Positions 3,001 to 6,000 of a stretch of DNA of 6,137 nucleotides are shown piece by piece. Made by a program: the position numbers. Within the stretch, counting starts at the first letter, position 1. Every line of letters starts with the position of its first letter. The DNA comes from a plasmid, in NCBI RefSeq assembly GCF_055900595.2, contig NZ_PP320291.1; one strand, given 5' to 3'.

Positions 3001-6000
3001 CGGACTTGTCCTTACCGCTATTGCTCGGCCTTCCCCCTCCCTTGGATACCTTGCCGCCCTTCGCACCTCTCCGGGCCTGCTCCTCTCTGAACCCTGCGGG
3101 GCTTAGGTGCTGGTGCGTCCATTTGGCAATGGACTTGGCCGTGTGCCGGACTTCGTTTGCGGGGAGCGGCTGCTCGAACTGGGCGTTATATCCTGATGCC
3201 CGGTCAACACAAGCGGCCAACCATTCGGGGTAATCCGGCCAGCCCTGCCGGATCGCTTTATAGGCCCACAGGCGCGTTTTCTCGAACAGGGTACAGTTTC
3301 GCCCAAGCCCGTACTCAGGAAGCGATTTGCGGCCATTGTAGGAGCTCAGATCGAGGTAATCGGATAGCCAGGCTAAATCGTAGAGCCGGGGTTCCCATAC
3401 CTGCACCAGCCAGTGCTCATGCAGGGGGTTCTTGCAGATCAGCCCGGAGTAGCCCATATCCGCCCCTAATTTCTCCCGGAGCGCGGCCTCGATGGCGGCG
3501 GCATACCGCAGAGGGGCTGCATTTCCATCCGGGGCAGTGCGGATCGGCGTATCCAGTCCGTAGATCAGATGCGCGTGGCCGTTGGCCTTGTTCGTGACGG
3601 TAATGTTAGGGGCTGGAGCGCCTACGTCATCCCAAGATAACGTAGCGGTTGCATGGTCTACGTCAAAAACGATCCAGTGGCGGTGCGTTGGCCCGTTCGG
3701 CTGGATGTAACGCGCACCAAGGGCGCGGGCAACATCCGCAATCCGTAGGCCCGTTGTAAGCTCGTCGGAATAGTAGGGTTTCCGGGGCAGGCGCTCCCGA
3801 AACAGCTCAAGCTGTGCGCACTTTCTCAAGCACCACCGCGCTTATTGGCGGCGTGGGGTTGTTTGGCATGATCCATGTGATAGACTTCTCTTGTGATTCG
3901 TCACGGCCCCCGTTTTTCGCAGCTCCGCCAAGATGCAAGCGATAACGGGGGTTGTCTTTTCTGGACAATACGTTACAGCAGGCACATCCTAGAGAGCAAC
4001 GTTAGTTGCATGTAACCTTTCACCCTGGAACATATTTCCACCTCCTTCTGCTTCTGCGCTGTTTTGAATTGCTTGATCTACGCCTCTAACTAGGTCGATC
4101 CTTGGGATTGAGTGGCACCATTGTCAGTGCAAGAATACTGATCCATATAAGTCTCTCTAGTCGGACAACACCAAGTGTTGAAGAGATCAAAAATCAACCT
4201 ATATCGGAGGATTCATGTCTGACATTGACAGATGCCCCCATGAAAGCAAAGCGAATGCGGTCCCAAAGCGCCTCTGTAGAAACGAATTTGAGCGAGGCAT
4301 TTGATGCCATCGTCTGCGTCCCAAGCGCCGGCAAGGACGGCCTGGTTGACCTATAGTAAACCGGTAGATGAAAATGATGGAGAACCAATATCAGCGCCTT
4401 CTTGGACTTTTTCGTCAAACGCTTTAGCAGCCAAGAAAGCCTACAATCCTTGATGGGCTAGGCACTTTATCGCAGCGGCATTCACCTTTACTGACATCGC
4501 CACTCCTTTATTCACACCCCCATGTTGAGTGACCATGGCCATTGAGATAACAAAAAAGCCTAGCAAATTGGCTAGGCTTTTTACGTTTAGGAATGTGATG
4601 CTAATGCTCAGGCTGAAAGTTAACGCGCGGAGCTTAAGTCGATTAGGCCTGACCGATTAAGTATGAGCCATTAACTACAAGCGCATCGAGCATCAGCATT
4701 TTGTCCATATATCTTTACAGCTTATATGACGGCTATTTCACACAAATACGCGCTAACCACTTCTAGGGAATAATTTTCTCCTGTTTGAGCACTTCTTTTG
4801 TGATGGCTTGGCGCAGCCCTAAACCATCCGATGTGGGCATATCCATATTCATCGCAAAAAACCACACATTATCATCAAGTTCAACCCAACCAACCCACCA
4901 GCCAATCTTAGGTTCGATACTAGTCGAGTATCCCGTTTTAGCCCGAATAATATAGTCGCCATTGGCTTCGGTCAGCATGGCTTGTTTCACGATGCGCTGA
5001 CTACGCTCAGAAACGTGCAGCTTGTTGTGATACAGCTTGCGTAAAAAAGCGATTTGCTGGGTAGCCGAAATGCGAATACCACCATCGAGCCAAAAACTGT
5101 CTACATTGCCCGAGATATCCTCATTGCCATAATCGAAGGCGTGCAGCATTTTACTCATACGTGCCTCACCAATTTGGCGGGCAAATTCTTGATAAACAGG
5201 CACAACTGAGTACTTCATCGCGGTAATTAAGTCATGGTCACGATTCCAAGCGGCGATATCACGCGTCTGTCCATCCCACTTAAAGACTTGGTGTTCATCC
5301 TTAACCACGCCCAAATCGAGGGCGATCAAGCTATTGGGAATTTTAAAGGTAGATGCGGGTAAAAATGCTTGGTTCGCCCGTTTAAGATTATTGGTAAATC
5401 CTTGCTGCTTATTCTCATTCCAGAGCACAACTACGCCCTGTGATTTATGTTCAGTAAAGTGAGCATTCCAACTTTTGTTTTCTTGCCATTCCTTTGCTAC
5501 CGCTGGCATTCCGATAATCGATGCCACCAAAAACACAGCCGATAAGGCTAATACACGCATAACGTCCCCTTGCTTAATGCAATATATCCATACAAATTAA
5601 GTGCTAAGCTTATCATTCTCTGCCCTCTCATTCCCTAGCAAACTGCTGACCAATTGTGGCAACAATCAGGCACAAGCTTTAACTATTACCTAAATTCCAC
5701 GTGTGTTTTTTATTAGCTTCAAAAATCACTATTTCACGAAGAATTTAGACTGCTTCTCACACATTGTAACATTATTTACAACCACCTTTCAATCATTTTT
5801 GATAAATCATTGATTTCATCTTTGCTGCAATGATACTTAATAAACTCTGCAAGTTATCCACAGAGCAACACTCAATTTTATTGATGATATTCTTAGGGGG
5901 AGTATGGGATTTTTTAACCTATCTAAAGCGCTTGAGGAGGTGTCTGATGCTTTTGGGGCTAAAGAAACCGCAATCGCTAGTGCCAAGTTGTTAGGTAAGG

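What the first reader, a model, noticed from the sequence alone, without database searches (positions are those of the whole stretch)
5689..5900. ISEcp1 reduced to its promoter-bearing right end: resistance gene fixed in place but still driven by the IS promoter
The ISEcp1 IRR and canonical outward promoter are intact, but the element stops about 190 bp in: only the last ~15 codons of tnpA remain and IRL is absent. The module can therefore no longer be mobilised by its own transposase, while bla expression is retained. The deletion junction at about 5880-5900 abuts the SD of the + strand ORF at 5904, so the deletion may have created or altered that gene's upstream region; weak promoter-like hexamers inside the remnant (TTGATT 5810-5815, 17 bp, ATACTT 5833-5838) are speculative.
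Basis: partly seen in the sequence, partly recalled or inferred. Interest (0 to 1): 0.4.

Follow-up and report, generated by a model that had tools for sequence, protein, structure and literature searches.

The report
Known ISEcp1 stump driving blaOXA-232
This is the published 207-bp right-end remnant of insertion sequence ISEcp1 on the common 6.1-kb pOXA-232 plasmid; it keeps the promoter in front of the carbapenemase gene but has lost the transposase gene and left end, so the finding is real but ordinary.

Summary
The window is the complete circular ColKP3-type plasmid pOXA-232, with 100% coverage and 99.9% identity to more than 100 database records. The flagged feature is real. Window 5689-5895 (minus strand) is 100% identical to ISEcp1 nt 1450-1656. 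It contains the IRR (5702-5689) and the published outward promoter TTGAAA-18 nt-TACAAT (5792-5763), 202 nt upstream of blaOXA-232.

Compared with the parent plasmid pKP3-A, one 1,463-bp deletion lies between 5895 and 5896. It removed ISEcp1 nt 1-1449 (IRL and all of tnpA, including its stop codon) plus 14 bp of backbone that included the left ATATA target duplication.

It was wrong that about 15 tnpA codons survive; none do. Its speculative plus-strand promoter does not pass a consensus scan.

The neighbouring 93-aa ORF is a conserved backbone gene. Its native upstream region had already been cut off by the Tn2013 insertion. The deletion moved the junction from 22 to 8 nt before its ATG and kept the Shine-Dalgarno sequence.

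Potron 2013, as cited by later papers, and a 2022 review ("promoter fixation") already describe both the structure and this interpretation. Verdict: already known, low interest.

The parts
5689..5895 (-). ISEcp1 remnant, equal to ISEcp1 nt 1450-1656 (207 bp). It is entirely the non-coding 3' end of the element.
   Evidence: 100% identity to full-length ISEcp1 from pKP3-A and pIFM3804. tnpA ends at nt 1449 in both references.
5689..5702 (-). ISEcp1 right inverted repeat (IRR), ACGTGGAATTTAGG on the minus strand
   Evidence: Sequence read directly. Found as a 2-mismatch match to IRL. It is the terminal 14 nt of the 1,656-bp element in pKP3-A.
5763..5792 (-). ISEcp1 outward promoter: -35 TTGAAA (5792-5787), 18-nt spacer, TG-extended -10 TACAAT (5768-5763). 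This is ISEcp1 nt 1553-1582.
   Evidence: It is the only promoter-like site in 5500-6000, matching 10/12. The hexamers and spacer equal the published ISEcp1 promoter (PMC9330008). Coordinates.
5561..5688 (-). 128-nt spacer between the IRR and the bla start codon, forming part of the predicted 5' UTR
   Evidence: Identical to pKP3-A. Length.
4763..5560 (-). blaOXA-232 (265 aa; carries Ser214, versus Arg214 in OXA-181)
   Evidence: ORF. This stretch is identical to L002, where the gene is annotated OXA-232. One nucleotide differs from pKP3-A at 4919.
5895..5896 (.). Deletion junction relative to pKP3-A. 1,463 bp are missing: ISEcp1 nt 1-1449 plus 14 bp of backbone (CCTCAATAC plus the left ATATA target duplication). 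I found no microhomology at the junction.
   Evidence: Three-way alignment. Junction sequences. 120 records carry the same junction.
4200..4218 (-). Far end of the truncated Tn2013: the surviving ATATA target duplication (4204-4200) and an imperfect IRR-like end (4218-4205, 7/14 matches to IRR)
   Evidence: The ATATA duplication of Tn2013 is stated in PMC7845606.
5896..5903 (+). Shine-Dalgarno region GGGGGAGT of the 93-aa ORF. The G run is 5 here and 7 in pKP3-A.
5904..6137 (+). First 78 codons of the conserved 93-aa backbone ORF (WP_043907053.1). It continues across the circle's origin.
   Evidence: A homologue with the same gene neighbourhood occurs in Aeromonas plasmid pAH06-06-2. 32 of 46 nucleotide differences fall at third codon positions.
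1..48 (+). Last 15 codons and the TAG stop of the same 93-aa ORF
   Evidence: The window end joins the window start in the 6,141-bp reference plasmid.

Best explanation
The window is plasmid pOXA-232. [quoted passage not shown] A single 1,463-bp illegitimate deletion then removed ISEcp1 nt 1-1449 (IRL, the tnpA promoter region and the whole tnpA ORF including its stop codon) plus 14 bp of adjacent backbone.

What remains is the 207-bp non-coding right end of ISEcp1. It carries the outward promoter TTGAAA-18-TACAAT and the IRR, 202 nt upstream of the blaOXA-232 start codon.

Shown here: the anatomy, the breakpoints, and promoter sequence identity.

Inferred, and stated in the literature:
- Transcription of bla starts a few nucleotides downstream of 5763 on the minus strand and runs through the IRR and the 128-nt spacer into bla.
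- Without tnpA and IRL the unit cannot transpose by the ISEcp1 mechanism, which needs IRL plus an IRR-like end. The gene is therefore stably tied to this small, high-copy, mobilizable plasmid.
For: - Whole-window identity to more than 100 pOXA-232 records.
- 207 bp at 100% identity to ISEcp1 nt 1450-1656.
- tnpA ends at nt 1449 in the reference copies.
- A single 1,463-bp gap relative to pKP3-A; the remaining differences are a few single-nucleotide changes and 1-bp indels, one of which is the OXA-181-to-232 change.
- The only promoter-like site in the region is the published ISEcp1 promoter.
- No IRL is left.
- The same junction occurs in 120 records.
- Two shorter variants on the same backbone keep 175 bp and 170 bp of ISEcp1. 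Both still retain the promoter at nt 1553-1582.
- Published statements describe the same structure and consequence: PMC6819465, PMC7845606, PMC9330008 'Promoter Fixation', and PMC7600919, which reports a 208-bp fragment.
Against: - No transcript or expression data were generated here, and the promoter call is a consensus match.
- The primary papers (Potron 2011 and 2013) were not available in the library. Their content is cited second-hand.
- Three database cointegrates show a full ISEcp1 next to blaOXA-232. If real, 'fixed' is not absolute.
Confidence: 0.95

Rival explanations
1. The remnant is not a dead end. Its 207 bp act as a homology patch that recombines with intact ISEcp1 copies resident in the same cell (for example the copy upstream of blaCTX-M-15). 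This would fuse pOXA-232 into large plasmids and re-create a complete ISEcp1-blaOXA-232 transposition unit.
For: - Three 328-337-kb records (pBio73, pBio45, pBio3) contain the whole pOXA-232 sequence.
- In each, a complete 1,656-bp ISEcp1 abuts blaOXA-232, and Tn2 tnpR-blaTEM-1 lies beyond IRL.
- In each, the pOXA-232-specific junction persists next to the 93-aa ORF.
- PMC9807924 lists three mega-plasmids with ISEcp1 upstream of blaOXA-232.
Against: - All three records come from one institution.
- The far junction in pBio45 and pBio3 is exactly 77 bp of IS26 left end fused to 77-78 bp of ISEcp1, 154 bp in total. It occurs in no other record.
- From my own knowledge, 77 is a usual largest k-mer in SPAdes-type assemblers, so this looks like unmerged assembly-graph overlaps.
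- pBio45 also has a 16-bp patch copied from the pOXA-232 junction inside its 'complete' ISEcp1, which looks like a polishing artefact.
- No pre-integration recipient junction was found.
Confidence: 0.12
2. The deletion created a new promoter, or otherwise switched on the 93-aa plus-strand ORF at 5904, and was selected for that reason.
For: - The junction lies 8 nt before the ATG and keeps the SD.
- The ORF is a real conserved gene.
- The A+T-rich remnant now lies upstream of it.
Against: - No plus-strand promoter-like site scores 9/12 or better in 5500-6000.
- The ORF is dispensable: the 5,922-bp variant has lost its 5' two-thirds.
- Its native upstream DNA (window about 3950-4199) was already separated from it in pKP3-A.
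Confidence: 0.04
3. bla is transcribed from a promoter in the 128-nt Shewanella-derived spacer between the IRR and the ATG, and the ISEcp1 remnant is a neutral leftover.
For: None was found here. It is a formal possibility because the spacer is retained in all variants.
Against: - The scan finds no promoter-like site on the minus strand between 5561 and 5688.
- Two further truncation variants on this backbone stop at nt 1482 and 1487, upstream of the ISEcp1 promoter at nt 1553-1582.
- The literature attributes expression to the ISEcp1 promoter.
Confidence: 0.03

Closest known systems
pOXA-232 (6,141-bp ColKP3/ColE-type plasmid; Potron et al. 2013, as cited in PMC6819465 and PMC9330008)
   Same: It is the same plasmid: 100% coverage and 99.9% identity. 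The delta-ISEcp1 junction is identical, as are the OXA-232 allele, repA and the mob genes.
   Different: The window is 6,137 bp. It has four 1-bp deletions in intergenic homopolymer runs and one repA SNP (A61T) relative to the 6,141-bp consensus. The deletions are probably sequencing errors.
[quoted passage not shown] 2011)
   Same: Same backbone, same insertion site, same right-hand ATATA duplication and IRR-like end, and an identical IRR-to-bla spacer.
   Different: pKP3-A has the complete 1,656-bp ISEcp1, 14 more backbone bp and the OXA-181 allele. The window lacks 1,463 bp.
Other promoter-retaining ISEcp1 truncations, such as IS26-delta ISEcp1-blaCTX-M and delta IS3000-delta ISEcp1-blaOXA-181 on IncX3 plasmids
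   Same: The left part of ISEcp1 is lost while the right end with promoter and IRR is kept upstream of a bla gene. An example fetched here is IS26|ISEcp1 nt 1259-1656|blaCTX-M-65. The IncX3 context is described in PMC9807924.
   Different: Those truncations are made by insertion of another IS, which stays at the junction. Here the truncation is a plain deletion with no foreign element and no microhomology.
'Promoter fixation' by IS remnants in general (for example the delta ISAba125 right end upstream of aphA-6; review PMC9330008)
   Same: An IS-borne promoter becomes a permanent part of a resistance gene's upstream region after the IS loses mobility.
   Different: ISEcp1 supplies a complete -35/-10 promoter. 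The ISAba125 remnant cited there supplies only a -35 hexamer for a hybrid promoter.

Membership tests
ISEcp1 (IS1380 family) - intact element | 14-bp right inverted repeat ACGTGGAATTTAGG | tested here: met
   Present at 5702-5689 on the minus strand.
ISEcp1 (IS1380 family) - intact element | Left inverted repeat CCTAGATTCTACGT | tested here: not met
   With up to 3 mismatches, only the IRR itself and a weak internal 14-mer are found. The IRL lies inside the 1,463-bp deletion.
ISEcp1 (IS1380 family) - intact element | 420-aa transposase gene tnpA (nt 187-1449) | tested here: not met
   Identity to ISEcp1 starts at nt 1450, immediately after the tnpA stop codon. No minus-strand frame across the junction matches the TnpA C-terminus ...YKGVYEKCLV.
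ISEcp1 (IS1380 family) - remnant | High nucleotide identity to the ISEcp1 right end, including the outward promoter TTGAAA-18-TACAAT | tested here: met
   207/207 nt identical. Promoter at 5792-5763 equals the published one.
Truncated Tn2013 | bla of the OXA-181 lineage 128 nt downstream of the ISEcp1 IRR, followed by the same downstream segment as in pKP3-A | tested here: met
   From 4200 to 5895 the only difference from pKP3-A is one nucleotide in bla.
Truncated Tn2013 | ATATA target-site duplication and an IRR-like alternative right end | tested here: met
   The right copy survives at 4204-4200, next to ACATGAATCCTCCG (7/14 to IRR). The left copy was lost in the deletion. The duplication is stated in PMC7845606.
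Truncated Tn2013 | delta lysR and delta ereA fragments downstream of bla | not tested
   Taken from the literature. I did not run family searches on 4205-4762.
pOXA-232 / ColKP3 plasmid | Near-identity over the full length to reference 6,141-bp plasmids, with repA, MOBP relaxase, mobC and the OXA-232 allele | tested here: met
Functional IS-provided promoter | Transcription start mapped downstream of the -10 and dependence of bla expression on it | not testable with these tools
   Needs 5' RACE or reporter assays. Only the literature statement is available.

The most novel reading that the evidence does not exclude
The 207-bp stump may serve as a recombination handle. Crossing over with a resident ISEcp1 copy, possibly even a right-truncated one sharing only nt 1450-1527, would fuse pOXA-232 into a large conjugative plasmid and regenerate a complete ISEcp1 next to blaOXA-232. 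That would restore the gene's ability to transpose. Three database records show exactly this product, but their junctions carry a 77+77-bp signature that looks like an assembly artefact.
Probability: 0.12. Interest if true: 0.35.

Novelty: already known. Interest (0 to 1): 0.08.

Why it matters
pOXA-232 is one of the main vehicles of OXA-48-like carbapenem resistance in Klebsiella pneumoniae. The stump explains two things: why the gene is expressed, and why it is almost always found on this one small plasmid rather than hopping between replicons. All of this is already in the literature.

This analysis adds base-level bookkeeping:
- The remnant is exactly ISEcp1 nt 1450-1656.
- No tnpA codon survives.
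- The deletion also removed 14 bp of backbone, including one target duplication.
- Shorter alleles of 175 and 170 bp exist, and they also keep the promoter.

Tried and rejected
- The accession JN205800 (pKP3-A) was not in the collections. The RefSeq copy NC_019160.1 was found through a flank search instead.
- Potron 2011 (PMC3186949) and Potron 2013 (PMID 23305656) are not held. Their content is cited via later open-access papers.
- Pfam on the 93-aa ORF gave only a sub-threshold chance hit. Its function remains unknown.
- I considered a transposase-mediated adjacent deletion and rejected it. Neither deletion endpoint coincides with an IS terminus.
- I considered an IS26-type truncation and rejected it. 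No foreign IS sits at the junction.
- I considered that the IRL-like 14-mer at 5749-5736 could serve as a surrogate left end. It has 3 mismatches, is not above chance (10 of 200 shuffles give 2 or more matches), is part of every ISEcp1, and lies downstream of the promoter. Any unit it defined would lack the promoter.
- I searched for a pre-integration recipient carrying the IS26(77 bp)|ISEcp1 nt 1527 junction. Only the two cointegrate records have it.
- I first read the pBio cointegrates as evidence for re-arming by recombination. I downgraded this after measuring the 77-bp fragment lengths and the 16-bp patch.

Full report
**Identity of the window.** The minus-strand ORF at 4763-5560 encodes an OXA-48-family enzyme. 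The whole 6,137-bp window matches more than 100 Klebsiella pneumoniae plasmids of 6,141 bp at 100% coverage and 99.9% identity. These are annotated as carrying blaOXA-232, a replication initiation protein, a MOBP relaxase, MobC and a VbhA-family antitoxin.

Rotating a reference plasmid (L002) onto the window shows that the window end joins the window start, so the window is the entire circle. It differs from the 6,141-bp consensus only by four 1-bp deletions in intergenic homopolymer runs (after 2563, 2735, 2841 and 3951) and one SNP at 3649, which gives RepA A61T.

**Checking the observation.** The sequence CCTAAATTCCACGT at 5689-5702 is the reverse complement of the ISEcp1 IRR. I aligned the minus strand against a full-length ISEcp1 in pIFM3804, where tnpA is annotated at L001:1238-2500. 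Uninterrupted identity runs from window 5895 down to 5689, matching L001:2501-2707. It therefore begins at the first base after the tnpA stop codon.

BLAST of the 1,656-bp ISEcp1 taken from pKP3-A gives the same result: ISEcp1 nt 1450-1656 equals window 5895-5689, 207/207 identical, E=2.5e-108.

An 80-nt probe spanning the junction is matched in full by 120 plasmid records. All the other ISEcp1-bearing records listed match only its ISEcp1 half and stop at 5895.

The remnant is therefore 207 bp, not about 190 bp. It contains no tnpA codon: the TnpA C-terminus ...YKGVYEKCLV* is absent from all three minus-strand frames across the junction. That attribution is my inference.

A search for the IRL with up to 3 mismatches finds only the IRR itself and one weak internal 14-mer, so the IRL is absent.

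**Promoter.** The only sigma-70-like site on either strand of 5500-6000 is TTGAAA-18 nt-TACAAT on the minus strand at 5792-5763, with a TG-extended -10 and 10/12 consensus matches. These are exactly the hexamers and spacing published for the ISEcp1 outward promoter (PMC9330008). The promoter lies at ISEcp1 nt 1553-1582, with 202 nt between the -10 and the bla ATG. Of those, 128 nt lie beyond the IRR.

**Origin of the junction.** NC_019160.1 is pKP3-A (7,605 bp). It has the same backbone with a complete ISEcp1 (2357-4012) upstream of blaOXA-181. A three-way alignment shows one 1,463-bp gap between window 5895 and 5896. The remaining differences from pKP3-A are a few single-nucleotide changes and 1-bp indels, among them the substitution at 4919 that converts OXA-181 to OXA-232.

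The deleted DNA consists of ISEcp1 nt 1-1449 and 14 bp of backbone. The backbone part is CCTCAATAC plus the left ATATA target-site duplication. I see no microhomology at the junction, and neither endpoint is an IS terminus. This argues for plain illegitimate recombination rather than a transposase-mediated event; that is inference.

The other end of the truncated Tn2013 survives. The ATATA copy is at 4204-4200 and an imperfect IRR-like end is at 4218-4205. This is consistent with the ATATA duplication reported for Tn2013 (PMC7845606).

**The neighbouring ORF.** The ORF starting at 5904 runs across the origin to window 48. It encodes a 93-aa protein annotated as hypothetical (WP_043907053.1). 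Pfam gives nothing.

I reconstructed the empty target site from window 3950-4199, then TATAT, then GTATTGAGG, then window 5896 onward. A search with it finds one uninterrupted match, with 97% coverage and 75% identity, in Aeromonas hydrophila plasmid pAH06-06-2. That plasmid encodes a homologous ORF in the same position next to a related rep gene. Between the two ORFs, 32 of 46 nucleotide differences are at third codon positions, and 25 codons differ synonymously against 14 that change the amino acid. The ORF is therefore a real, conserved backbone gene.

Its native upstream region is window about 3950-4199, which Tn2013 separated from it. In pKP3-A the ATG is 22 nt from the IRL. In pOXA-232 it is 8 nt from the junction, with the SD kept and the G run shortened from 7 to 5. 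So the deletion altered the upstream sequence, but it did not detectably create a promoter. The gene is also dispensable, as the next section shows.

**Variants.** On the same backbone:
- pS471P_P4 (5,922 bp, OXA-181) keeps only ISEcp1 nt 1482-1656. It has lost the first two-thirds of the 93-aa ORF through a 219-bp deletion flanked by CTGT microhomology.
- pHKP0067.1 (6,103 bp, OXA-181) keeps nt 1487-1656. This agrees with the '170 bp' reported in PMC7600919, which gives '208 bp' for the 6,141-bp form.

All alleles retain the promoter and the IRR. This is what selection for bla expression would predict, although the number of independent events is small.

**Literature.** The structure and its meaning are already published.
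[quoted passage not shown] - A review section titled 'Promoter Fixation' cites Potron et al. 2013 for a deletion leaving about 200 bp of ISEcp1 that includes the complete promoter (PMC9330008).

**A lead that weakened on inspection.** Three 328-337-kb records from one hospital (pBio73, pBio45, pBio3) contain the whole pOXA-232 sequence with a complete ISEcp1 abutting blaOXA-232. The pOXA-232-specific junction persists next to the 93-aa ORF, preceded by only 78 bp of ISEcp1. This would be the product of recombination through the stump, re-arming the gene with an intact IS.

Several details count against it:
- In pBio45 and pBio3 the far junction is exactly 77 bp of IS26 fused to 77-78 bp of ISEcp1, 154 bp in all.
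- That junction is seen in no other record.
- pBio45 carries a 16-bp patch from the pOXA-232 junction inside its 'complete' ISEcp1.
- From my own knowledge, 77 is a typical maximum k-mer of short-read graph assemblers, so these joins look like unmerged graph overlaps.

I treat these records as weak evidence and list the idea as the novel case.

**Verdict.** The feature is real, its coordinates are refined to 5689-5895, and one detail (surviving tnpA codons) is corrected. The feature is already known, and interest is low.

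Noticed in passing
window 1-6137 (differences at 2563, 2735, 2841, 3649, 3951): The window is the entire circular plasmid. It is 4 bp shorter than the 6,141-bp consensus because of four 1-bp deletions in intergenic G or C homopolymer runs, probably sequencing errors. It also has one SNP at 3649 that changes RepA Ala61 to Thr.
   Followed up: partly
window 5904-6137 + 1-48; window about 3950-4199; L007 3001-3549: The 93-aa 'hypothetical' ORF is conserved, with mostly third-position differences, in Aeromonas hydrophila plasmid pAH06-06-2. 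That plasmid carries the uninterrupted target site, so Tn2013 split this gene from its native upstream region. A relative of the ColKP3 backbone therefore exists in Aeromonas. The function of the ORF is unknown.
   Followed up: partly
L004 3888-4062; L013 about 4074-4243: Shorter ISEcp1 stumps occur on the same backbone with blaOXA-181. One is 175 bp (nt 1482-1656) with a 219-bp deletion at CTGT microhomology that removes most of the 93-aa ORF. The other is 170 bp (nt 1487-1656) joined at a 4-C run. Both keep the promoter.
   Followed up: yes
L009 3501-11168; L010 10381-18140; L011 3045-10716: The cointegrate records pBio73, pBio45 and pBio3 show pOXA-232 integrated with a complete ISEcp1 next to blaOXA-232. 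Their far junctions are 77 bp of IS26 plus 77-78 bp of ISEcp1, and pBio45 has a 16-bp junction-derived patch inside ISEcp1. This suggests assembly or polishing artefacts.
   Followed up: partly
window 5736-5749 (minus strand): An IRL-like 14-mer, TCTAAATTCTTCGT, lies inside the remnant, 33 nt inboard of the IRR. It has 3 mismatches to IRL and 11/14 complementarity to the IRR, so it forms a subterminal inverted repeat present in every ISEcp1. It is not above chance in the window, and its significance is unknown.
   Followed up: no
window 4553-4582: A 12-bp-stem hairpin, AAAAAGCCTAGCCAATTTGCTAGGCTTTTT, is flanked by an A run and a T run about 180 nt downstream of bla. It looks like a bidirectional terminator. 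It could also stop plus-strand read-through from the orphaned native promoter region of the 93-aa ORF.
   Followed up: no
window about 1228-1253 and 2089, versus L003: pKP3-A differs from pOXA-232 by a compensating +1/-1 indel pair inside the relaxase gene and by one extra G. This changes the annotated relaxase length (1,341 versus 1,455 nt). These are possibly errors in the 2011 record.
   Followed up: no
records NZ_CP141573.1, NZ_CP137419.1, NZ_CP140296.1 (about 12,282 bp): Several database records are exactly twice the plasmid length and carry two bla copies. They are either plasmid dimers or assembly duplications (also listed as a 12.27-kb entry in PMC6764390).
   Followed up: no
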